Origin: Candidatus Enterousia sp.
GTDB taxonomy: Bacteria > Pseudomonadota > Alphaproteobacteria > Rs-D84
Reading direction: 5' to 3'
DNA: 64,000 nt
Assembly (NCBI GenBank): GCA_045546195.1
Contig: JAZQCH010000008.1
Location: forward strand, 7,481-71,480
Part shown: positions 14,647 through 60,573 of the stretch, piece by piece
How positions within the stretch are numbered: position 1 is the stretch's first letter
How the letters are laid out: each line of letters begins with the position of its first letter
Position numbers and translations under genes: made by a program
Notes under the pieces: model-generated
The model's input: only the letters and a program-made list of their open reading frames with translations
What the model was told of the DNA's origin: nothing
Databases searched by the model: none

Positions 14647-14780
14647 TGGCATAGAGCAGAAAAAACAATGCCGAAAAAAAAGGGACGATTAGATTCGGCA
14701 TAATTCTACAAAGTAATTTCCCAGATTTTCGCATAATTTGACTCCCCATTATTTGCCTAAAAAAAACGTCGGTTTGGGTG
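14647..14780 (+). promoter_or_regulatory. Conserved 5' module, copy A (upstream region plus first codons of the 14738 ORF)
   Basis: 14671-14780 aligns ungapped to 27593-27702 with 4 differences in 110 nt. Hairpin TGCCGAA-N18-TTCGGCA, two A8 tracts. A possible promoter TTGCGA-N17-TAAAAT sits at 14615-14643. Confidence 0.7.
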
Positions 14781-16054
14781 CGGCAATGCCTGCGTTTGCG
14801 GATACATTTCCATCAAACGGATATATGTTGGAAAACAAGACCTATGTCAATGCGGCAACACAACAAAACATTGGCGTGTATGACGGCACGGTGACCGCAA
14901 CCGCGGAATACGAAGATATCCTGTATCAAATTGGTGCGGGAATGTACCTGCCCGCGGGGTCGGTTGATGCGGAACAATGCCCCGCCAACAGTTATTGCCC
15001 GGGTTTGACGGACGCAACATACAACGAAAGCGCGGCCCAGGGTGCAACATCGTGCCCGTCGGGTTATCCAAATTCCGCCGCGGGCGCGTCGTCAAACACG
15101 CAATGCTATACCACATGTACGGTAAATTCGGCGAATATTGAACATGCAACGGCGGTGGCTGGTAATGATTATTACAACACCGACGCAGATACATGTTCCG
15201 CCACCGCGTGTGAAAACGGATATCATGTAAATGAAACAACGGGGATTGTCGAACAAACACCATTGATTGATGTTGATTATACCGTGGCGGGTAATGGTTG
15301 GGGGTATATCAGTGCCGACGGCAGCAAAACCTCTAAGGCCGATACATATGGCCTGACTGAATACAATACATGGGCGTCGAAATTTGGTTATGGTGTTGTG
15401 TATGGTCGCGCCAGTTGCCAATCAACACTGCATGACCCCGGCCTTGAATATATAATGGCGAATCAAAGTGGGGTGCTGAACGCGACAATGTCGCCGGATC
15501 AGGTTCGTTCGGATTTAACACCGATTGTTGGTGTGGCCAAGGCAAATTATTTTGCGGACATTGTTGCTGGCATTGCCGATGGTACCAAGGGCGAAGAAGA
15601 TTTCTGGGACGCCGTGTCTGTTGTATTTGGGAAGTTCAAGGATGCATTGTTCAGCACAACGGACACGGGTCAACATTGTTATTGCCAAATGACGGGGTTT
15701 AAATCGGGTTCGTCGTCTGTTGTTGACATTGCGTCGGCCCCGTGGGTGCTCTTCGGCGGCTACGACTCGGCGGACAAATGCGCGAACAGTTGTGCGAACA
15801 GTTGTGCATCCTACCTGCAGGGCGGTGGCACGTTTCATCGCGGGTTCCGTGGGGCGATGTACGGTGCGTTGGATTTTGTCGCCGGTGGCACATGCGCAGC
15901 GAACGAAATCACAATTAACTGGACGGACGCAACGGACGAAGATATTGCCGCAAACAACGCCGGTATGTGTACATACGGTGGTGATATCCGCACACCGGTC
16001 GCAGCCATGGAAAAACCGGGCAAAACGTTTGTTGGGTGGAAATTCAGCAAGTAA
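14738..16054 (+). CDS. Cys-rich secreted protein (family member 2), start uncertain
   Basis: The TTG start gives [21 protein letters not shown] as a weak signal peptide; an alternative ATG is at 14786. GVYDG..YED..Y..G.YLP..CPANSYCPG is shared with 16278. The C-terminal ..TINWTD..CTYGGDIRTPVAAMEKPGKTFVGWKF resembles the Listeria-Bacteroides repeat. Confidence 0.6.
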   Translation: MTPHYLPKKNVGLGAAMPAFADTFPSNGYMLENKTYVNAATQQNIGVYDGTVTATAEYEDILYQIGAGMYLPAGSVDAEQCPANSYCPGLTDATYNESAAQGATSCPSGYPNSAAGASSNTQCYTTCTVNSANIEHATAVAGNDYYNTDADTCSATACENGYHVNETTGIVEQTPLIDVDYTVAGNGWGYISADGSKTSKADTYGLTEYNTWASKFGYGVVYGRASCQSTLHDPGLEYIMANQSGVLNATMSPDQVRSDLTPIVGVAKANYFADIVAGIADGTKGEEDFWDAVSVVFGKFKDALFSTTDTGQHCYCQMTGFKSGSSSVVDIASAPWVLFGGYDSADKCANSCANSCASYLQGGGTFHRGFRGAMYGALDFVAGGTCAANEITINWTDATDEDIAANNAGMCTYGGDIRTPVAAMEKPGKTFVGWKFSK

Positions 16055-27568: not shown

Positions 27569-27702
27569 TGGTATAGAAGGAAAAAAAGACTGCCTAAAAA
27601 AAAGGGACGATTAGATTAGGCATAATTCTACAAAGTAATTTCCCAGATTTTCGCATATTTTGACTCCCCATTGTTTGCCTAAAAAAAACGTCGGTTTGGG
27701 TG
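27569..27702 (+). promoter_or_regulatory. Conserved 5' module, copy B
   Basis: Same block as 14647-14780. The hairpin here is TGCCTAA-N18-TTAGGCA, a compensatory change relative to copy A. The block starts at TGGTATAGA. Confidence 0.7.
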
Positions 27703-28913
27703 TGTTGTTGATGCCACTGGGCGCGGCGATGGCTGATATGGTAACAGATTGCGCCGATTGTTATAAGTGCGTTTCGTTTGCGGGTGATGGTGGTTGTAAT
27801 AGGTGCGAGTATGATGAAGCCTATTGTATGTTGTCTGATATGTTGTATAATGAAAATGCTTGTTCCTATTTTGAAGGCTTGTATCGTACAGTCGCCGAGG
27901 ATGCCAATTGTCCTGTTGCGAACGGGGAATACAATGCTTTGATACAAAATGCATGTGGCAGATATCATTCGGGTAATTACAGTGATTGTGTTAATTATTT
28001 GGGTAATTACAATTCGATGTTCTTTACGGCGATATGTGACCATATGGGGGATATTTATACCGCAAGTTTGGCGTCGAATATTGTCGATTGTACAATCCGT
28101 GATGACGCAGCAGTGGAAGAAGATATTGTCATGCCCACGGATTTATGGTATCCGGGGCAGTATTGTTATAATGACACAGATCGTTATATTATGTATCGGT
28201 GTGACTGTGAACGTGATTCGTCGATAAGCCAGGCTGTGTCCAGTCAGGCGGTTTGTATGGAGGTGTATGGCACAGAAAATGAAATTCGTGGGAATTGTTA
28301 TCTGGGGGCTGTAAGTGAAGACGTGTATTTGGTGACGAACAGTGCGGGTGAAACGCCGTATTGTGGTACCACAAGCGATATGTTGTCGTCCAGGTGGGCG
28401 GATTATGTCTGCGCAGATACCCAAGACCCAATGCAAACGCCAGAACAGTTGTGTGCGTGTCGTACAACCTGGTCGGATTGGGGAAATGATGGGGTGGATT
28501 TTGGCGTTATTCGTGAACGGCCAGAATATGCCTGTGGTCAGGTTGATTGGTCAACGCGGTGCCAGGATACGTCGCATAATTTGTCGGGGCTGTATATGGC
28601 CAGTGCGAAAAACTATAACTGTACGCGGACTGGGGATACACAGTATCAGTGTTCGTGCCCGTCGGCTTATTACACGATAACCACCGCCCAACCCCAGGGA
28701 AGCGATAGATGTAACTGTAACCGGTGTCCGTGTGTTGTGGACAAAGATGGAATTCAACGATGTGGCGCGGTTACTGGGGCAGGGTTGGAACAGGATTCGG
28801 AATATGGGTATTTTATGGGGGCGGAAATAACGCATTGCGGGTTGTCGCGCGGAACATTTGCCGATGATTCAGGTGAATTTCAATACACGGACTATTGCCG
28901 GTGGCAAAATTAG
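27660..28913 (+). CDS. Cys-rich secreted protein (family member 4), start uncertain
   Basis: The TTG start gives [25 protein letters not shown] as signal peptide. About 10 percent Cys. C-terminal ..[21 protein letters not shown] module. Confidence 0.6.
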
Positions 28914-31051: not shown

Positions 31052-32266
31052 ATGCAGAACGAATTATTGGCTGAATTACAGGCGCGTGGATTTATCAATC
31101 AGACATCTAATATGGATGGGTTGAATGATGCGTTGAATGCGGGAAAAATTACGGCGTATTTGGGGTCTGACCCAACCGCTGATTCGTTACATGTTGGGCA
31201 TCTGGTGCCGGTGATGATGATGCGTTGGTTACAGAAATATGGGCACAAGCCAATTACACTGGTCGGTGGGGCAACGGGACGTATCGGTGACCCGTCGGGA
31301 CGTGACAGTGGCCGACCAATGATGACCGAAGAAGTGTTGGCGAAAAATGTCGCAGGATTGAAAAAATCGTTTTCTAAGTTTTTCAAGTTTGGTGATGGCG
31401 CGTCCGACGCAATTATGGTTGATAACTATGATTGGATGAAGAATTACAGCCATATGGATTTCCTGCGCGATTTTGGGACGGATTTCACAGTGCCGCGTAT
31501 GTTGTCGATGGATTCGGTAAAACGTCGATTGGATAACGGTATGACGTTCTTGGAATTTAACTATATGACGTTCCAGGCGGTGGATTTCCTGACGCTGTAT
31601 CGTGAACATAATTGTATATTACAGACCTGTGGGGCGGACCAGTGGGGTAATGCGATTATGGGGATTGAACTGATACGCAAGAAGTTAGGCAAAGAGGCTT
31701 TTGTTTTGTCGACATCGCTGATTACAGATGCCAATGGAAATAAAATTGGAAAATCGGCCGGTAATGCGGTTTGGGTGAACGAAGATAAAACATCGCCATA
31801 TGAGTACTATCAATATTTCCGTAATGTGTCGGATGATTTGGTGGAAAAGTTCTTGAAAATATTTACAGAAATTCCGTTGGACGAAATTGCACGCCTGGCC
31901 GCGTTGCGTGGGGCAGAATTAAATGCCGCGAAAAAGGTGCTGGCATTTGCCGCAACCGAAATCGCACACGGACATGACGCCGCCGTTGCCGCCCAAGAAG
32001 CCGCCGATGCGTTGTTCGGTGGTGGGGCAAATTCGGCGAATGTCCCAAGTGTTGAAATTGATATGGCGGGCGATATGGGGATTTTGGATTTCTTGTGTGC
32101 GACGGGACTGTTTGCGTCTAAGTCCGAAGCGCGCCGCACGGTCGAGCAGGGCGGAATCCAAATCGATGGCAAGAAATTTACCGACCCGAAATCTGTTTTG
32201 GCAGTGGCACCGGAATTCATGGTACAAAAGGGCAAGAAGGTGTTCTTGAAAGTGATTGTGCGGTAA
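31052..32266 (+). CDS. tyrS: Tyrosine--tRNA ligase
   Basis: HIGH motif (HVGHLVPV), KMSKS-like KIGKS, C-terminal S4-like domain. Confidence 0.95.
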   Translation: MQNELLAELQARGFINQTSNMDGLNDALNAGKITAYLGSDPTADSLHVGHLVPVMMMRWLQKYGHKPITLVGGATGRIGDPSGRDSGRPMMTEEVLAKNVAGLKKSFSKFFKFGDGASDAIMVDNYDWMKNYSHMDFLRDFGTDFTVPRMLSMDSVKRRLDNGMTFLEFNYMTFQAVDFLTLYREHNCILQTCGADQWGNAIMGIELIRKKLGKEAFVLSTSLITDANGNKIGKSAGNAVWVNEDKTSPYEYYQYFRNVSDDLVEKFLKIFTEIPLDEIARLAALRGAELNAAKKVLAFAATEIAHGHDAAVAAQEAADALFGGGANSANVPSVEIDMAGDMGILDFLCATGLFASKSEARRTVEQGGIQIDGKKFTDPKSVLAVAPEFMVQKGKKVFLKVIVR

Positions 32267-33339
32267 TGAAGAAGGTAGTTGCGGTATTTTCTTTGTTTTT
32301 TATGTTTGCTGGGCCGGTGCTGGGCGCCAGCGAACTGTCCAAGATTAACGCACAGATTAAGCAAACCGAACAACAAAACAAGAAGTTGGAACAACAGGTT
32401 AAAACTTCGAACAAGGAACTGTCGAAAACAAAAAAAGATTTGGTGCGCGCCGCAGACAAGGTTAGCGACCTGGAAGATCAACGTGGCGCAATGGCGAAAA
32501 AAATCGCAGAACTGGACGCGCAACGCGAAAAAATTACGCGTGAAATGGAATCGAATCGGGCGCGGATATCAGATGCCGCTGCCAGTATTCTGTTCGTCGC
32601 GTCGCACCCCAGTTTTGATGCCGAAAATATGCGGGAATATGTGCTGATGTCGGCGGTGCTGTCGGGGACGGCGCAACAGTTGGACGGTGAAATCGCACGG
32701 GCGGAAAAACAGGTGCGGGAACTGGGGCAAATTCGTGACGCACGGGCGGTCGAAAAAGAAAAATTAGACAGAACCGCAAAAAAATATGCGCGTGAAAAAA
32801 AGGAACTGGATAAACTGTTGAAAACGCGCAGTGCGCAAAATGAAAAGTTGAAAAATCAACATTCGGCATTACAGAAAAAATTGCGCGAATTGTCGGCACG
32901 CGCAAAAAGTATTTCAGAATTATCCGCCGGCGTGGGCAGTTCACAGATGTCAGCAGACGCAAGTTTTTCAAGACGGAAATTAAACCTGCCGGTAAGGGGG
33001 CGTGTGGTGGTGAAATTTGGTGAAAAAACCGCGTTGGGGTTGAAATCAGATGGTTGGCGGGTGCGTACGCGCGGTGATGCGTTGGTGATGGCACCGGCGG
33101 ACGGGGTTGTAAAGTTTGCCGACAGTTTCCGCGGGTTTGGGAAAGTCGTGATTATGTCGCATAAAAATGGGTATAATACCGTTATGACGAACCTGGGGAA
33201 TATTGATGTGATGCTGGAACAGGAAGTTTTGGCGGGCGAACCAATTGGACGGATGAACCCGGACAAGCCAGAAATGTATCTGGAAGTGCGCCGTGGGAAC
33301 AAGGCCGTTGACCCCGCACGATTGTTCAAAGAAGAATAA
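32266..33339 (+). CDS. EnvC-like murein hydrolase activator (coiled coil plus M23/LytM domain)
   Basis: Signal peptide, long Q/K/E-rich coiled coil, C-terminal LytM fold ..APADGVVKFADSFRGFGKVVIMSHKNGYNTVMTNLG.. . The start overlaps the tyrS stop (TAATG). Confidence 0.75.
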   Translation: MKKVVAVFSLFFMFAGPVLGASELSKINAQIKQTEQQNKKLEQQVKTSNKELSKTKKDLVRAADKVSDLEDQRGAMAKKIAELDAQREKITREMESNRARISDAAASILFVASHPSFDAENMREYVLMSAVLSGTAQQLDGEIARAEKQVRELGQIRDARAVEKEKLDRTAKKYAREKKELDKLLKTRSAQNEKLKNQHSALQKKLRELSARAKSISELSAGVGSSQMSADASFSRRKLNLPVRGRVVVKFGEKTALGLKSDGWRVRTRGDALVMAPADGVVKFADSFRGFGKVVIMSHKNGYNTVMTNLGNIDVMLEQEVLAGEPIGRMNPDKPEMYLEVRRGNKAVDPARLFKEE

Positions 33340-33412
33340 AATATCCAAATTCCGATTTTTTTAATAAAAAAACGCGCAGTGGCGCGGATTCTGTGGCGTG
33401 TGGCCGAAAAAA

Positions 33413-33530
33413 CAGTGCCTAATTAAAACGGTGGTTTGGATTCGGCACAAAATATGATTGACTTTTCGCCCAAAATGCGACAAAATTCAGCAAAAGAAGT
33501 GCCGAATCCAAACCACCGTTTGGGTGCGTC
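33413..33530 (+). promoter_or_regulatory. Rearranged relative of the conserved 5' module (copy C) with a perfect 23-bp inverted repeat
   Basis: CAGTGCCTAATTAAAACGGTGGTTTGGATTCGGCAC aligns to module hairpin 1 of copies A/B. AAACGGTGGTTTGGATTCGGCAC (33426-33448) is the exact reverse complement of 33499-33521, with a 50-nt spacer. It ends in GTTTGGGTGCG like A/B. Confidence 0.75.
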
Positions 33531-33556
33531 GCGTATAGAAGAAAGGGAGAGCAAAT

Positions 33557-34669
33557 ATGCGGTTTTTTAGCAAAAATATTGATTTGTACAACGTGGGTCA
33601 ATGGGCGCGTCGTGCGGGGGTGCGTATGATGGGGTTGGTTGTTGCGTTGTTTGCGTCCGCGCGCGCAGATGCCGCCGAAGGAATTATGGGGACCGCATGC
33701 CCGGGTTGTGTGACATATGTTGGAACGGTTTGTGATTCTGGTTCAACATACGGTGCATATGATGATGGTGTTGGTGTTGGTACACAGTATGCGTATTGTA
33801 TTGATGCCAATATTATGGATGCATATGATGCGCGTATTTATGACGCGGATTGCGTGGCACTGTTGAAAAGTTGGGGGATGTGTGACGCGATGTCGTCGGG
33901 GTCGCAAAGTATGGGGTTGGAAATGTTGTATAATCCGGACCTGAATTGTACAACTGCGTCCGAATGGGCGGGATATTATGTTGAGTATGGGTTCAACACG
34001 TATGAGCATAATCGTGATATATCGGGGAATGTGGAATTTTATGAAATGGCTGCGGACGAGCCTTATATTTGTTGTGATGTCAGCGAAGGTGTTGGTTCGG
34101 CACCATGTTGTGTTTCTAGTTCTTCGTGTTTAGAAGATTATGCGTATTGTGGATATTGTAGTGGGCAAATGTATTCTTTGTTGGTTTATGACAGTGGTGA
34201 TATGGGTAATGCCCAAACGTGTACAGATGCGTTTGAAGCGTACTTTAACAGCGAAGATAATTCAACCGGATGGTGCGATGGTTCCGGTATTATGGTCGAG
34301 GCCACCGGCGCCATGTTAATTGCCCAGGCGTGTTGGGGCGCCACCACAATACGCCAGGCCAGTTCGTACGGTATGCAATCATATTGCGGTGTTGTGATTA
34401 CGGGATGTCGCGCCGACAATGGATATTGGTTTAATGGCGATGTTGCCACTCCGAATGATTTTATTGCTGATGGTTCGGCGCATTCGTGTAGTGCGTGTCC
34501 GGCGCCGGTCAGTGGTTATGACAGTGGACATAATTTCAGCATCAATGGCGGAACGGGTATTGGTGTTGAATCATGCTATGCCACGGCGGGAACGGCGACT
34601 ATATCTTTGACAGATACTACGGGGACATATCAGGAAACAATCACCGCGGATTGCCCGTACACGGAATAA
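33557..34669 (+). CDS. Cys-rich secreted protein (family member 5)
   Basis: AGGGAGA SD. Signal peptide ..RMMGLVVALFASARADA. C-terminal ..CSACPAPV..ESCYATAG..GTYQETITADCPY module. Confidence 0.7.
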   Translation: MRFFSKNIDLYNVGQWARRAGVRMMGLVVALFASARADAAEGIMGTACPGCVTYVGTVCDSGSTYGAYDDGVGVGTQYAYCIDANIMDAYDARIYDADCVALLKSWGMCDAMSSGSQSMGLEMLYNPDLNCTTASEWAGYYVEYGFNTYEHNRDISGNVEFYEMAADEPYICCDVSEGVGSAPCCVSSSSCLEDYAYCGYCSGQMYSLLVYDSGDMGNAQTCTDAFEAYFNSEDNSTGWCDGSGIMVEATGAMLIAQACWGATTIRQASSYGMQSYCGVVITGCRADNGYWFNGDVATPNDFIADGSAHSCSACPAPVSGYDSGHNFSINGGTGIGVESCYATAGTATISLTDTTGTYQETITADCPYTE

Positions 34670-34685: not shown

Positions 34686-35783
34686 ATGAAAAAGGCAAAG
34701 AAACAGATTAATGTTATCGAAATCGATACGCGTGACGCAGACTATCAGACCGGTATTGGGCGGTATATCGATATTGTGTCGCGTAATATGCCAGATTATG
34801 TTCATACATATCGCATCATTTTATATCGCACGCATAAAAATGAATTACATATCACAGAAACAGATACGGAATTGTCGGTATATATGACGACCAGTATGCA
34901 TAATTCCGTATTGAATAATATCATTATTCAGATGTGGGGGGCGAAAATCGCCAAGATGCAGAATTTGATTCTGAAAGTGAACTGTGTTGGGATGGAGACT
35001 TTGGCGTACGCGATTCGTACACAGTTTTATTGTAAAATTGTTGGGGTACTGCATTTTTCGCCACAGTGGATTTTGGACGGAAAGCCGGGACGGAAAAATA
35101 ATCCGTTCTTTAATATGGATCATGTTATTTCTGTGTTTGCGCGTGGGGTTGAATACCTGCGGGAAATTAAGTGTGTGCGGCCGCACACCGTGATTTTGAA
35201 CGGAATTGAACCGCCTAAAATAACCCCGCGTCCGCGTGATGACGTGTTCAGATTTATTTTCCCAAATGGATGGGCAAAGCGCAAGGGACTGGTCAAGATT
35301 TTGCCAGCATTTAAAAAAGTCGCAGAAAAGCATAATATCGAAGTTCTAATCCTGGGGGGATATGGACCCGAGATTAAGCCCGAAGAATTGTCGCGTGATT
35401 TGCCGGTGCGTTTGTTGGGACTGATAAACGACGAAAACGAGGTTGCAAAATACTATGATATGTCAGATTGCTGTTTATTCGCATCCGCGTCCGAGGCATG
35501 TTCCATCGCCGGGATAGAGGCAATGTCGCGCAATATGCCGATAATATCGACAAACTGCGAAGGGTTGGCGGAAATGTTTGGTAATGCGGCGCTGTATGTA
35601 AAAATGGGGGCAGATTATTCGATTGATGCGGATGAATATGCCGCGCATATGTGCAGCATTATTGAAAATAAACGTCTGCGCAACAAATTGTCTGTGTTGG
35701 CGTATTCGCGATATGTTTCGCATTATACCGCCAAGAAGATGGTCGCCGAAACATTAAAGATATACGAGAAGTTGACCGATTAA
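34686..35783 (+). CDS. Glycosyltransferase family 1 (GT-B, GT4-like)
   Basis: C-terminal half ..LFASASEACSIAGIEAMSRNMPIISTNCEGLAEMFG.. fits the E-x7-E GT1 motif region. Confidence 0.8.
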   Translation: MKKAKKQINVIEIDTRDADYQTGIGRYIDIVSRNMPDYVHTYRIILYRTHKNELHITETDTELSVYMTTSMHNSVLNNIIIQMWGAKIAKMQNLILKVNCVGMETLAYAIRTQFYCKIVGVLHFSPQWILDGKPGRKNNPFFNMDHVISVFARGVEYLREIKCVRPHTVILNGIEPPKITPRPRDDVFRFIFPNGWAKRKGLVKILPAFKKVAEKHNIEVLILGGYGPEIKPEELSRDLPVRLLGLINDENEVAKYYDMSDCCLFASASEACSIAGIEAMSRNMPIISTNCEGLAEMFGNAALYVKMGADYSIDADEYAAHMCSIIENKRLRNKLSVLAYSRYVSHYTAKKMVAETLKIYEKLTD

Positions 35784-35812
35784 AAATCCCCCAGTTGGGG
35801 GATTTTTATTTT
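35782..35812. terminator. Bidirectional terminator between convergent genes
   Basis: AAAAATCCCCC-AGTT-GGGGGATTTTTATTTTTT. Confidence 0.75.
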
Positions 35813-36672
35813 TTGATGCTTATTATATCATAATTTTTCAATGGGGTGACGGTAAGAGTGTGTGATAATGTCGCCCCCGATGATGTTGTTGGAATCATAC
35901 ATTCGGTCATTGTGTTTCTGTAATCTGCGTGTTTGGATTGGTCGGCCGTAGGCAGACTTAGGATTATCGCGCAGGTTTTCATTACTTCGTTGTTCGGACA
36001 CTGCCAGCACTGTTTCAAAACGGCGGCTGGGATTTGGTGGAATTTTTTTGCGTGTTCTTCGCGGGTGACACATTTTTTTGTTGATGTGTCCCAAACCTGG
36101 GTCGCGGTGTTACATTTTGTACAAATGCCATTTGAATCAATGCCCTGGGTTGATGTGGTTGGACATTCAACACAGTTATTGGATGTGGCACTTTCATAGC
36201 CAATATTGCCGTCATTTGCGCCGCATGGTTCGGTACAGGTGCCGTTGCGTTTAATCAAATTGCCGTTACAGTTGGTTGGTTCGGTACATGGTTTGTCGGA
36301 TACAACATTGCCACAGGCGTCTGTGACCCGTTGATATGTACATGTGCCGTTTGACAGGTCAACAGTGATGGTTTCGGATGTTGTCCAATTTTTTGCCTCT
36401 ACAAAATTGCCCTGTTTGGATGTGGTGCCGTTACAACACCATGCCTTGACCGAGCCATATGTGAACGATTGGCCATGGTATAGCCAATGGATATTATGGC
36501 GTTTGCGCATTTTTTGTTTACATTTTTTTTCCTGGGAACCACAGAACCAGGCACTGTCCGTGCCGTCTGTTTCCAGATAGCATTTATTGTTTGTGTCAAA
36601 CCCGTTCTTGGGTTCGGCAAACGCAGCGTTTGTACATAAAATAACTGAAATCGCGATGATAAATTTTTGCAT
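35806..36672 (-). CDS. Cys-rich secreted protein (family member 6)
   Basis: Signal peptide MQKFIIAISVILCTNAAFA. Many Cys, including NNCVECPTTSTQG and ICTKCN. Confidence 0.7.
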   Translation of the reverse strand: MQKFIIAISVILCTNAAFAEPKNGFDTNNKCYLETDGTDSAWFCGSQEKKCKQKMRKRHNIHWLYHGQSFTYGSVKAWCCNGTTSKQGNFVEAKNWTTSETITVDLSNGTCTYQRVTDACGNVVSDKPCTEPTNCNGNLIKRNGTCTEPCGANDGNIGYESATSNNCVECPTTSTQGIDSNGICTKCNTATQVWDTSTKKCVTREEHAKKFHQIPAAVLKQCWQCPNNEVMKTCAIILSLPTADQSKHADYRNTMTECMIPTTSSGATLSHTLTVTPLKNYDIISIKK

Positions 36673-59931: not shown

Positions 59932-60573
59932 ATGATTTATGGCTATATACGTGTGTCGACAGACCATCAAACAACAGAAAATCAACGCTTTGAAATCAAG
60001 CGGTTTTGCGAAAAGCAAGATTTGGTCATAGATTGCTGGATAGAAGAAACAATTTCATCAACCAAGGATTTAAGCAAGCGTAAGTTAGGGCGTCTGTTGC
60101 GCCGTATTCAAAAAGATGACCTGATTATTGCGTCTGAATTGTCGCGATTGGGGCGAAATTTATTACAGGTGATGAGTATTTTACACCATTGTATGGATGT
60201 TGGGGCAAAAATATGGACAATCAAGGATAATTACAGGCTGGGGTCTGATATTACTTCGAAAGTTTTGGCGTTCGCTTTTGGGTTGTCCGCGGAAATTGAA
60301 CGAAATCTGATTTCGCAACGAACCAAAGAAGCATTGGCGCGCGTCAAGGCCGAAGGAAAGCGTATAGGGCGACCCCGTGGCAGTTCAAATGCACGCAAAC
60401 TGTCTGGGCGTGAAAAGTATATTGCCCAAAAATTGGCAGACGGGCGCACTAAATATGAAATCGCGCACAGATTGCGTGTTCATCGCGATACGCTGAACCG
60501 GTTTATTGAAAAATATGAACTGGGGGCTGATGAAGCAGACGGACAATCAAAAACACCAGTGTTAAAACTGTAA
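59932..60573 (+). CDS. Serine recombinase (resolvase/invertase family)
   Basis: AAGGAG SD. MIYGYIRVSTDHQ..NQ catalytic-Ser motif, ..SRLGRN.., ..ERNLISQRTKEAL.. and a C-terminal HTH. Confidence 0.9.
   Translation: MIYGYIRVSTDHQTTENQRFEIKRFCEKQDLVIDCWIEETISSTKDLSKRKLGRLLRRIQKDDLIIASELSRLGRNLLQVMSILHHCMDVGAKIWTIKDNYRLGSDITSKVLAFAFGLSAEIERNLISQRTKEALARVKAEGKRIGRPRGSSNARKLSGREKYIAQKLADGRTKYEIAHRLRVHRDTLNRFIEKYELGADEADGQSKTPVLKL

What the first reader, a model, noticed from the sequence alone, without database searches (positions are those of the whole stretch)
33413..33530. Perfect 23-bp inverted repeat (50-nt spacer) in a rearranged relative of the 5' module, 35 nt upstream of a Cys-rich gene
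AAACGGTGGTTTGGATTCGGCAC (33426-33448) is the exact reverse complement of 33499-33521. The left arm with its 5' flank (GAAAAAACAGTGCCTAATTAAAACGGTGGTTTGGATTCGGCAC) aligns position by position with module hairpin 1 of copies A/B. The element ends in GTTTGGGTGCG like A/B. The spacer contains TTGACT-N17-CAAAAT facing the gene. So the same building blocks appear here in a different arrangement. This is what site-specific or homology-driven rearrangement would produce. Alternatively it is a very stable 5'-UTR hairpin (23 bp) or a MITE-like insertion.
Basis: partly seen in the sequence, partly recalled or inferred. Interest (0 to 1): 0.62.

Follow-up and report, generated by a model that had tools for sequence, protein, structure and literature searches.

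The report
Tiny flip-switch promoter for a surface-protein operon
The 23-bp inverted repeat marks the two ends of an 84-bp piece of DNA carrying a promoter that is found in both orientations in different samples of this uncultured gut bacterium. It is therefore an on/off DNA switch of the Bacteroides "Mpi" kind, but unusually small and in a different bacterial group.

Summary
A perfect 23-bp inverted repeat (33426-33448 / 33499-33521) encloses 50 nt containing TTGACT-N17-CAAAAT, 35 nt upstream of a Cys-rich gene.

It is not an RNA hairpin or a MITE. It is an invertible promoter. Each arm is the inner part of a 32-bp dyad-symmetric recombination site, and the two site centres lie 84 bp apart.

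The decisive evidence comes from ten other assemblies of the same species (left flank 98.5-99.1% identical). They carry this locus with identical outer flanks and site cores, but the inner 72 nt occur in three states:
- as in the window (ON);
- reverse-complemented (OFF, 71/72 identical);
- replaced by the core of another switch of the same genome.

Two other switches of this genome are inverted in orthologous loci of other species. Paralogous loci in five further genomes show both orientations, with the breakpoints inside the 12-bp motif AAACGGTGGTTT.

Of 64 such elements in the genus, 50 carry a one-way sigma-70 match (0.74 expected by chance).

The likely enzyme is encoded in the same window (59932-60573). 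It is a 213-aa serine recombinase that passes the NCBIfam "master DNA invertase Mpi" equivalog model, and its orthologue co-occurs with the sites (26/29 against 10/72 genomes).

Verdict: a new, ultra-compact variant of a known kind of switch.

The parts
33416..33447 (.). Left (gene-distal) recombination site: TGCCTAATTAAAA CGGTGG TTTGGATTCGGCA, 13-6-13 dyad symmetry. The outer half stays with the flank; the inner half travels with the core.
   Evidence: Sequence. The same architecture is found at 6 loci of the genome. Breakpoints of inverted copies fall inside AAACGGTGGTTT.
33431..33432 (.). Centre of the left site (GT): the predicted 2-bp crossover point. Its partner is AC at 33515-33516, 84 bp away.
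   Evidence: Inferred from the symmetry centre. Left and right sites almost never differ at this dinucleotide but often differ at the two positions next to it.
33426..33448 (+). Left arm of the perfect 23-bp inverted repeat
33449..33498 (+). Invertible core carrying a sigma-70-type promoter: -35 TTGACT at 33458-33463 and -10 CAAAAT at 33481-33486. The predicted transcription start is near 33493. In this assembly it faces the gene (ON).
   Evidence: Promoter scan. The hexamers are conserved and the spacer varies across family members. 50 of 64 elements have a one-way match, against 0.74 in shuffles. The core is found reverse-complemented in L185, L190 and L191.
33499..33521 (+). Right arm of the inverted repeat
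33500..33531 (.). Right (gene-proximal) recombination site: TGCCGAATCCAAA CCACCG TTTGGGTGCGTCG. Its outer half-site is degenerate.
   Evidence: Sequence. It is identical in all conspecific assemblies whatever the core state.
33543..33551 (+). Ribosome-binding site AAGGGAGAG of the controlled gene. It is fixed and lies outside the switch.
   Evidence: Sequence
33557..34669 (+). Controlled gene 1: a 370-aa secreted Cys-rich protein (signal peptide ...ALFASARADA) with no Pfam family
34686..35783 (+). Controlled gene 2: a GT4 glycosyltransferase (365 aa), probably co-transcribed. A terminator-like hairpin lies at 35782-35813.
   Evidence: Pfam PF00534, E = 4.8e-17. Hairpin family D1.
33363..33386 (-). 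Intrinsic terminator on the minus strand (CGCGCCACTGCGCG + T7). It would stop leftward transcripts made when the promoter is flipped.
   Evidence: There is no minus-strand gene upstream of it for about 2.4 kb. The function is inferred.
59932..60573 (+). Candidate invertase: a 213-aa small serine recombinase of the Mpi family (YIRVSTDHQ active-site motif, GRPRG arm, C-terminal HTH)
   Evidence: NCBIfam NF009949, 309.2 bits against a cut-off of 272. PF00239. The nearest solved structures are Gin invertase. It co-occurs with the sites.
14669..14785 (+). Sister element 'module A': the same 13-6-13 / 53 nt / 13-6-13 layout, centres 85 bp apart. Its cargo is an RBS, an ATG and the N-terminal part of a signal peptide. 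It is OFF in this assembly.
   Evidence: Flipping in silico gives GGGGAG-N7-ATG and MRKSGKLLCRIMPNLIVGLGAAMPAFA|D in frame with the 438-aa ORF.
27591..27707 (+). Sister element 'module B': same layout and cargo class as A. It is OFF here and in the conspecific assemblies that reach its core.

Best explanation
The element is a miniature invertible promoter (inverton).

Anatomy. Two 32-bp dyad-symmetric recombination sites lie in inverted orientation with their centres 84 bp apart. They bracket a 50-nt core that carries a sigma-70 promoter.

ON state (this assembly). The promoter faces right and should start transcription near 33493. That transcript has a ~64-nt leader containing only the right site. 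It covers a two-gene operon for a secreted Cys-rich protein and a GT4 glycosyltransferase.

OFF state. After site-specific inversion between the two site centres, the promoter faces left. It would then make only a short transcript that ends at the minus-strand terminator at 33386-33363, leaving the operon silent.

Wider system. The switch is one of six promoter switches in this 0.94-Mb genome, alongside sister switches (modules A/B) whose cargo is an RBS and start codon. All sit in front of secreted-protein genes, and most are OFF in consensus assemblies. This fits phase or antigenic variation of the cell surface.

Enzyme. The enzyme is most probably the unlinked Mpi-family serine invertase encoded at 59932-60573, acting globally with a 2-bp crossover at the central GT.

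What is shown and what is inferred. Shown: the anatomy, the two orientations in nature at this locus, the family, and the presence, family assignment and co-occurrence of the recombinase. Inferred: promoter activity, the transcription start, the role of the terminator, which enzyme acts, the exact crossover, and switching within a clonal population.
For: 1. Same locus, same species. The M23 peptidase protein encoded just upstream is found letter for letter in 10 further assemblies from other samples. Their left flanks are 98.5-99.1% identical to the window. The outer flanks and both 12-bp site cores are identical. The inner 72 nt are as in the window in L187 (70/72) and reverse-complemented in L185 and L190 (L185 71/72; L190 reads the same); L191 is flipped too, but is cut off. 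In L182-L184, L186, L188 and L189 the inner 72 nt are replaced by the core of the G000:C8:2336 switch (68/72).
2. Orthologous loci in other species are inverted. G000:C8:2336 against G024 has flanks collinear at 87-94% identity over 400 nt each side and a core 96-98% identical but inverted. G000:C10:148597 against G048 is a second case.
3. Paralogue families in G091, G052, G030, G015 and G067 contain both orientations. Cores are 92-100% identical while flanks are 77-94% identical. Outer half-sites stay with the gene and inner half-sites go with the core. The own-genome paralogue at C1:293506 is inverted relative to the window copy.
4. Promoter signature. TTGAC(T/A) and nAAAAT-type hexamers are conserved at 17 nt spacing over a variable spacer. 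50 of 64 elements have a one-way match, against 0.74 in shuffles.
5. Orientation relative to the gene is mixed. There are 7 ON, 25 OFF, and 16 between two outward-reading ORFs. A fixed promoter would always be ON.
6. Enzyme. This is the only small serine recombinase in the genome. It passes the Mpi equivalog model. An orthologue of at least 77% identity is present in 26 of 29 site-positive genomes and 10 of 72 site-negative genomes (Fisher p = 6e-13). Among the 28 nearest relatives the table is 9/2/3/14 (p = 0.0015). Three of the ten exceptions do have sites when 3 mismatches are allowed, and none of the 14 double-negative genomes does.
7. Site pairs keep the central dinucleotide identical (1 difference in 64 at each position). 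They often differ at the two adjacent positions (14 and 13 of 64). A 2-bp serine-type crossover tolerates this; a 6-8-bp tyrosine-type overlap would not.
8. Centre-to-centre distances are quantised: 73 (1 element), 83-86 (57), 95-96 (6), and none at the other 17 values allowed. These correspond to whole helical turns, as expected for a protein synapse across a very short loop.
Against: - Both orientations are therefore shown between populations of one species, not within one clonal population, and no rate is known.
- Promoter activity and the transcription start are predictions only.
- The recombinase assignment rests on family membership and co-occurrence, which shared ancestry partly confounds. 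Three site-positive genomes lack the orthologue in their (incomplete) assemblies, among them G024, which holds an inverted orthologous locus.
- The 13-6-13 site layout would also suit a tyrosine recombinase, and XerC/XerD-like genes are present.
- An 84-bp invertible segment leaves only about 52 bp between the sites. That is an extremely tight loop for a serine-recombinase synapse, and no precedent was verified here.
- The sister module B was found in only one orientation in the conspecific assemblies that reach its core.
Confidence: 0.87

Rival explanations
1. It is the same invertible promoter, but it is flipped by a tyrosine recombinase (the XerC/XerD-like pair or another integrase) rather than by the Mpi-family serine invertase.
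For: The sites have 13-bp arms around a 6-bp centre, a layout typical of tyrosine-recombinase core sites (sequence). XerD-like and XerC-like genes and two integrases exist in the genome. Three site-positive genomes show no Mpi orthologue.
Against: The Mpi orthologue tracks the sites far better (odds ratio 54, p = 6e-13) than the 390-aa integrase does (odds ratio 2.6, p = 0.05). That integrase is 94-97% identical across species, as a mobile-element gene would be. Left and right sites often differ at two positions that would lie inside a 6-8-bp overlap region. Xer genes are housekeeping genes and would not explain the patchy distribution of the sites.
Confidence: 0.1
2. It is a structured 5' leader. 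The 23-bp hairpin forms in the mRNA and controls stability, termination or translation of the Cys-rich gene.
For: The predicted RNA fold is very stable (-63.1 kcal/mol, z = -7.2). The upstream M23 gene has no good plus-strand terminator, so read-through transcripts could contain both arms.
Against: The conserved promoter lies inside the loop, so its transcript contains only the right arm. The arms are conserved as sequence, with an invariant AAACGGTGGTTT, not as covarying pairs. The symmetry extends into outer half-sites that are not part of the hairpin. The loop is found in both orientations. Rfam gives only sub-threshold microRNA-hairpin matches.
Confidence: 0.02
3. It is a MITE-like mobile element with terminal inverted repeats and an outward-facing promoter, inserted in either orientation upstream of genes.
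For: It is multi-copy (6 in this genome, up to 10 in relatives), about 96 bp long, and has terminal inverted repeats.
Against: Conspecific, orthologous and paralogous loci have the element at exactly the same position, with identical flanks and only the inner part reversed. The breakpoints lie inside the repeat, not at its outer ends. There is no target-site duplication (the flanks read ...CCTAATTA and GGGTGCG...). Every copy sits before a secreted-protein gene at a fixed distance from its RBS.
Confidence: 0.01

Closest known systems
Mpi (FinA), the master serine DNA invertase of Bacteroides fragilis, and its dispersed invertible promoters (fin regions) for capsular polysaccharide loci
   Same: One unlinked small serine recombinase and many dispersed promoter-bearing invertible segments bounded by inverted repeats, placed in front of surface-structure genes and mostly OFF. 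The recombinase here passes NCBI's Mpi equivalog model. [quoted passage not shown]
   Different: The host is an uncultured reduced-genome gut alphaproteobacterium, not a Bacteroidales member. The invertible segment is 84 bp between crossover centres, with 50 nt between the arms; from memory, the B. fragilis segments are roughly 170-190 bp (not checked here). The promoters are sigma-70 type. The controlled genes are secreted Cys-rich proteins with a glycosyltransferase. A sister class of the same sites carries an RBS and start codon instead of a promoter. Similarity of the site sequence to the Bacteroides sites was not tested.
Hin/Gin/Cin/Pin (Din family) invertases and their hix/gix sites
   Same: Both use a small serine recombinase with a GRPR-type arm and a C-terminal HTH. 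The nearest solved structures are Gin. Both have dyad-symmetric sites with an A-tract and ...AAAC next to a non-palindromic central dinucleotide. The resemblance to hix/gix is recalled from memory; the title of Patrick et al. 2003, cited in PMC3090145, states that the B. fragilis repeats resemble the hin repeats.
   Different: Din invertases act on one adjacent segment of about 1-3 kb and need a Fis-bound enhancer. Here the enzyme is 26 kb from the nearest site, acts (by inference) on many sites, and the segment is far too short to hold an enhancer. Similarity to Gin is only E = 1.8e-14 over the catalytic domain.
fimS (FimB/FimE) of E. coli and the cwpV and flagellar switches (RecV) of Clostridioides difficile
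   Same: An invertible element between the upstream region and a surface-protein gene that gives ON/OFF phase variation.
   Different: Those switches use tyrosine recombinases and segments of about 150-314 bp. The cwpV switch acts through a terminator in the leader rather than by promoter orientation (PMC2784873, title and abstract).

Membership tests
Invertible promoter (inverton) | Inverted repeats bracket a segment that contains a promoter | tested here: met
   A 23-bp perfect inverted repeat brackets TTGACT-17-CAAAAT. The hexamers are conserved across 50 of 64 family members, against 0.74 by chance. Promoter activity itself was not measured.
Invertible promoter (inverton) | The segment exists in both orientations at one locus, with unchanged flanks | tested here: met
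   The window and L187 are ON; L185, L190 and L191 are flipped, with L185 71/72 identical to the reverse complement (L190 reads the same). Left flanks are 98.5-99.1% identical.
Invertible promoter (inverton) | Both orientations coexist within one population (reversible switching) | not testable with these tools
Mpi-family master invertase system | A small serine recombinase that belongs to the Mpi family | tested here: met
   NF009949 equivalog: 309.2 bits (cut-off 272), E = 1.2e-92, covering residues 1-197 of 213. PF00239. The catalytic motif YIRVSTDHQ is visible in the sequence.
Mpi-family master invertase system | One enzyme and many unlinked target sites across the genome | tested here: inconclusive
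   Six promoter switches lie on four contigs, plus modules A and B, and there is only one small serine recombinase. Co-occurrence is 26/29 against 10/72 genomes. That this enzyme acts on the sites is inferred, not shown.
Mpi-family master invertase system | The inverted-repeat sequence matches the Bacteroides Mpi target consensus | not tested
   The primary paper is not held, and a search for the consensus as I recalled it found nothing.
Mpi-family master invertase system | Invertible segments of about 170-190 bp (B. fragilis; figure recalled from memory) | tested here: not met
   Centre-to-centre distances here are 84 bp at this locus and 73, 83-86 or 95-96 bp across the family.
Din-family (Hin/Gin) invertase | The recombinase gene lies adjacent to, or inside, a single invertible segment that holds a Fis-dependent enhancer | tested here: not met
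   The gene lies 26 kb from the switch, between ssb and an S8 autotransporter gene. The segment is 84 bp. The enhancer was not searched for.
MITE | The whole element, including its terminal repeats, is the mobile unit, flanked by a target-site duplication, and empty sites exist | tested here: not met
   Only the part between the site centres changes orientation. The flanks CCTAATTA and GGGTGCG are not a duplication.
Cis-regulatory RNA (any Rfam family) | A match to a curated covariance model at or above its gathering score | tested here: not met
   The best match is MIR171_2 at 31.9 bits against a gathering score of 65, a generic long-hairpin match.

The most novel reading that the evidence does not exclude
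The dispersed mini-switches may form one recombining network, not independent toggles. The same invertase would flip each 84-bp cassette and also move cassettes between loci, for example by two successive large inversions or by a cassette-exchange reaction between the matching site pairs.

This would explain two observations:
- conspecific strains carry the core of the C8:2336 switch at the window locus;
- cores are 100% identical among paralogous loci whose flanks are only 77-94% identical.

If so, these sub-megabase genomes run a programmable promoter-shuffling system built from the smallest serine-invertase substrates known, with the sites held an exact whole number of helical turns apart (73, 84 or 95 bp).
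Probability: 0.35. Interest if true: 0.8.

Novelty: new variant of a known kind. Interest (0 to 1): 0.62.

Why it matters
- Reach of the mechanism. It would extend Mpi-type global phase variation from Bacteroidales to an uncultured, reduced-genome lineage of gut Alphaproteobacteria. Earlier notes call it Candidatus Enterousia; I did not verify the name. In that lineage almost nothing is known about surface biology or host interaction.
- Size limit. With 84 bp between crossover points and about 52 bp of DNA between the two sites, the switch is at or below what is usually thought possible for synapsis of two sites on one DNA. The strict quantisation at 73, 84 and 95 bp gives a direct handle on how the loop is closed.
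- Detection. Switches this short, with 50 nt between the arms, may be hard to tell from hairpins or terminators. Inverton surveys may therefore under-count them. This is my inference.
- Annotation. Genes behind OFF switches look promoterless. Genes behind OFF switches of the A/B class look as if they lack a start codon.
- Synthetic biology. The modular use of one site type for two cargoes (a promoter, or an RBS with start codon), plus the apparent exchange of cores between loci, are attractive for synthetic biology.

Tried and rejected
- Rfam scan of 32800-34000: only sub-threshold microRNA and snoRNA matches caused by the long hairpin.
- Exact-protein look-ups gave no record for the Cys-rich protein, the GT4 protein, the 124-aa neighbour of the C8:2336 switch, plsX next to the C10:80352 switch, and the 142-aa neighbour of module A.
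- The M48 peptidase look-up found the C8:2336 locus in two other assemblies, both in the same (OFF) orientation as here. This was uninformative.
- Module B: conspecific assemblies show one orientation only, and two strains lack the gene altogether.
- Two scans of metagenome contigs with core sequences found nothing.
- Orthologue of the window locus in other species: the DNA after the M23 peptidase gene is unrelated in the 11 nearest genus genomes. The Cys-rich/GT4 operon with its switch is therefore a species-level insertion and cannot be compared across species.
- Literature: Coyne et al. 2003 is not held. A search for the Mpi repeat consensus as I recalled it found no paper. No Enterousia paper mentions inversion or recombinases.
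- Exact crossover: the GG/CC asymmetry of site pairs in G052 and G015 did not give a consistent answer between paralogues. Only the position statistics were kept.
- The 390-aa tyrosine integrase as an alternative enzyme: only a weak association with the sites.
- A homology-driven (RecA) inversion was considered. It was judged unlikely because the arms are only 23 bp, because they are conserved as a specific dyad-symmetric motif across loci and species, and because the spacing is quantised. It was not formally excluded.

Full report
**1. The observation**

The repeat is exactly as described. The arms are 33426-33448 and 33499-33521: 23 nt, 100% complementary, 50 nt apart. They have no other copy in the window, and none is expected by chance. 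The spacer holds TTGACT-17 nt-CAAAAT on the plus strand (33458-33486). The right arm ends 35 nt before the ATG at 33557 of a 370-aa Cys-rich ORF. The left arm with its flank matches module A at 33 of 43 ungapped positions, and A and B end in GTTTGGGTGCG and GTTTGGGTGTG.

The symmetry goes beyond the arms. Each arm is the inner half, plus the centre, of a 32-bp site built as 13 bp, 6 bp and 13 bp:
- left site: TGCCTAATTAAAA CGGTGG TTTGGATTCGGCA (33416-33447);
- right site: TGCCGAATCCAAA CCACCG TTTGGGTGCGTCG (33500-33531).

The two site centres are 84 bp apart.

**2. A family, always in front of secreted-protein genes**

The window lies in a 938-kb, 13-contig genome with 45% G+C. The motif pair AAACGGTGGTTT ... 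AAACCACCGTTT occurs six times, always 84-85 bp apart. Each pair sits next to a gene for a Cys-rich protein with a signal peptide. Several of these genes are followed by a glycosyltransferase gene.

In all six, the core carries TTGAC(T/A), a 17-18-nt variable spacer, and an nAAAAT-, AATAAT- or TAAATT-type hexamer. This is the conservation pattern of a promoter.

In a sample of 101 genomes of the genus, 29 have such pairs. Among 64 distinct elements collected, 50 have a sigma-70 match in one direction only, against 0.74 expected from shuffled cores.

Titles of the closest public records read 'MAG: Alphaproteobacteria bacterium' from ruminant and other animal guts. Earlier notes of this scan name the genus Candidatus Enterousia.

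**3. The core flips while the flanks stay**

(a) This locus. The M23 peptidase encoded just upstream (32266-33336) occurs with an identical protein sequence in ten assemblies from other samples, all with the Cys-rich gene and GT4 gene downstream. Left flanks are 98.5-99.1% identical to the window, and the right flank, where aligned in full, 94-97%.

The outer flank AACAGTGCCTAATTA, both 12-bp site cores, and the proximal flank GGGTGCGTCGCG... are identical in all of them. The 72 nt in between occur in three states:

| State | Assemblies | Identity |
|---|---|---|
| As in the window (ON) | L187 | 70/72 |
| Reverse-complemented (OFF) | L185, L190; L191 flipped but cut off | L185 71/72; L190 reads the same |
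| Different core, OFF orientation | L182-L184, L186, L188, L189 | 68/72 to the core of the G000:C8:2336 switch, but only 54/72 to the window core |

(b) Orthologous loci. G000:C8:2336 and G024 have collinear flanks (87-94% over 400 nt each side), and the core is 96-98% identical but inverted. It is OFF here and ON in G024. G000:C10:148597 (ON) and G048 (OFF) give a second case.

(c) Paralogues. The own-genome paralogue of the window operon (C1:293506, a Cys-rich gene of 385 aa plus GT4) has collinear flanks and an inverted core. In G091, G052, G030, G015 and G067, families of near-identical loci contain both orientations. When all are drawn with the gene on the right, the outer half-sites are constant and the inner half-sites swap sides with the core. 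The breakpoints therefore lie inside the 12-bp motif.

(d) Orientation tally. For elements with one neighbouring gene, 7 face it and 25 face away. Sixteen lie between two outward-reading ORFs and could act as toggles (crude ORF criteria).

These results exclude a fixed promoter, an RNA-only element and a MITE.

**4. How it most likely works**

In the ON state the promoter should fire near 33493. The mRNA then carries only the right site in a ~64-nt leader.

The operon consists of the Cys-rich protein gene (33557-34669) and a GT4 glycosyltransferase gene (34686-35783; PF00534). A terminator-like hairpin follows at 35782-35813.

In the OFF state the promoter would face the 3' end of the M23 gene. 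A minus-strand intrinsic terminator (33386-33363) lies there. It has no minus-strand gene to serve for about 2.4 kb, so it would cut the OFF transcript to about 90 nt (inference).

**5. The enzyme**

The genome has four tyrosine recombinases: one XerD-like, one XerC-like, and two integrases. It has two serine recombinases: a 534-aa large one, and a 213-aa small one at window 59932-60573.

The small serine recombinase scores 309 bits (cut-off 272, E = 1e-92) on NCBIfam NF009949, 'master DNA invertase Mpi family serine-type recombinase', which is an equivalog model. Its nearest solved relatives are Gin invertase structures. Homologues at 63-68% identity are common in Bacteroidales, Treponema and Capnocytophaga.

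Within the genus, orthologues fall into two clearly separate groups: at least 77% identity, and paralogues at 47-68%. Co-occurrence of the orthologue with the sites:

| Comparison | Result | Source |
|---|---|---|
| Site-positive genomes with orthologue | 26 of 29 | |
| Site-negative genomes with orthologue | 10 of 72 (Fisher p = 6e-13) | |
| 28 nearest relatives (both / sites only / enzyme only / neither) | 9 / 2 / 3 / 14 (p = 0.0015) | |
| The ten 'enzyme only' genomes, 3 mismatches allowed | 3 turn out to have sites | |
| 14 double-negative genomes, 3 mismatches allowed | none has sites | |
| 390-aa integrase, same test | p = 0.05 | |

Shared ancestry inflates these numbers, so I treat them as support and not proof.

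Two features of the sites fit a serine-type 2-bp crossover at the symmetry centre:
- The left site and the reverse complement of the right site differ at the central G or T in 1 of 64 elements each, but at the next two positions in 14 and 13 of 64. Differences there would lie inside the 6-8-bp overlap of a tyrosine recombinase.
- Modules A and B likewise have centres GGGACG and CCGACG, which differ at the edge and are identical at the central GA.

**6. Relation to modules A and B**

A (14669-14785) and B (27591-27707) have the same two-site layout: a 53-nt core and centres 85 bp apart. Their cargo differs. Inverting A in silico at the site centres yields GGGGAG, 7 nt, then ATG, and the peptide MRKSGKLLCRIMPNLIVGLGAAMPAFA|D. 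This runs in frame into the 438-aa ORF, which otherwise lacks a credible start. Both A and B have a fixed promoter upstream (TTGCGA-17-TAAAAT and TGGACA-17-TATCAT; read).

One site type serves a transcriptional switch (this finding) and a translational switch (A/B). An ATGCGA in the window core aligns with the start codon region of A/B and looks like a relic of common origin (sequence reading).

Module B was seen only in its OFF form in the conspecific assemblies that reach its core.

**7. Geometry**

Centre-to-centre distances of the 64 elements are 73 (1 element), 83-86 (57) and 95-96 (6). These are steps of about 11 bp, corresponding to 7, 8 or 9 helical turns.

With 32-bp sites, only about 52 bp of DNA separate the two protein-bound sites. 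How a synapse closes over such a loop is unexplained. DNA-bending proteins or the A/T-rich core may help.

**8. Comparison with known systems**

The closest system is Mpi (FinA) of Bacteroides fragilis. It is a single serine invertase that flips 13 dispersed regions, seven of them capsular-polysaccharide promoters (PMC4747536), with both orientations present in cultures (PMC3090145, PMC10403206).

Shared features:
- the recombinase family (tested);
- a global layout of one enzyme and many sites;
- a promoter as cargo;
- surface-structure targets;
- an OFF bias.

Differences:
- the phylum of the host;
- the promoter type;
- the target genes;
- the roughly two-fold smaller segment (the B. fragilis size is recalled from memory);
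- the second cargo class;
- the apparent exchange of cores between loci.

Membership of the enzyme in the Mpi family is met. Similarity of the sites to the Bacteroides sites was not tested.

It is not a Din-type (Hin/Gin) system: the enzyme is unlinked to its sites and the segment has no room for an enhancer. No paper found on these bacteria mentions DNA inversion.

Several earlier notes of this scan reached the same Mpi-type reading for other loci and genomes. I used them as leads only. The evidence above is independent of them. It adds direct ON and OFF copies at this locus, and the replaced core.

**9. Verdict**

This is a real, well-supported invertible promoter of the Mpi type, in an ultra-compact form. 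Still open are the switching rate within populations, the biochemical proof of the enzyme and the crossover, and the mechanism of core exchange.

Noticed in passing
window 33438-33509, compared with L182-L184, L186, L188, L189 and with G000:C8:2348-2419: In six conspecific assemblies the window locus carries the core of a different switch of the same genome (68/72 identical to C8:2336), although the left flank is 98.5% identical. In other genomes, cores are 100% identical among paralogous loci whose flanks are only 77-94% identical. Cores seem to move or be copied between switches.
   Followed up: partly
window 33363-33386, minus strand: There is a good intrinsic terminator on the minus strand with no minus-strand gene to terminate for about 2.4 kb. 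It is placed to stop transcripts from the flipped promoter. The M23 gene itself lacks a good plus-strand terminator, unlike its orthologues in relatives.
   Followed up: partly
64 elements of the genus sample (loci L015-L095 and G000): The distances between the two site centres are quantised at 73, 83-86 and 95-96 bp, with nothing in between. These are whole helical turns.
   Followed up: yes
L018, L026/L088, L089, L038, L043, L094: Some switches lie between two divergently oriented Cys-rich genes, so one promoter could toggle between two genes rather than switch one gene on and off.
   Followed up: no
G000:C10:148480-148600 and its orthologue in G048 (L019): A fixed near-consensus promoter (TTGCCA-17-TATAAT) lies just upstream of the C10:148597 switch and reads through it. 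This locus would therefore have a fixed promoter and a flipping promoter in series. In the OFF state the flipping promoter faces pyrG.
   Followed up: no
G000:C1:18812-18845: A single, unpaired recombination site (CTTAATCTAAACAGTGGTTTGGATTAGGCAG) lies directly upstream of the RBS of a 452-aa Cys-rich gene. It may be the remnant of a switch, or a locked one.
   Followed up: no
window 27580-27610 and L199-L206: The A-runs at the edge of module B vary in length between conspecific assemblies (A7 or A8 before GACTGCC; A8 or A9 inside the left site). Two strains (L207, L208) lack the whole Cys-rich gene and go straight on to different DNA whose first ORF begins [10 protein letters not shown]... (clpP-like by eye; not checked).
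   Followed up: no
window 33476-33570: An ATG in the core (33476) opens a 31-codon frame with no RBS. It runs through the right site and ends 11 nt after the real start codon. Its first codons (ATGCGA) align with the start codon region of modules A/B, so it is probably a relic.
   Followed up: partly
G000:C1:165137-170905: A 390-aa tyrosine integrase is 94-97% identical in five other species-level genomes of the genus (83% in a sixth). This points to a recently spreading mobile element. A 526-aa tyrosine recombinase lies next to it.
   Followed up: no
window 60562-60573: The stop of the Mpi-family gene overlaps the 3' end of the convergent 634-aa S8-peptidase autotransporter gene by 12 nt. The gene sits between ssb and this gene, with no phage or transposon genes nearby. 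It lies on the same contig as the M23 gene in several relatives.
   Followed up: no
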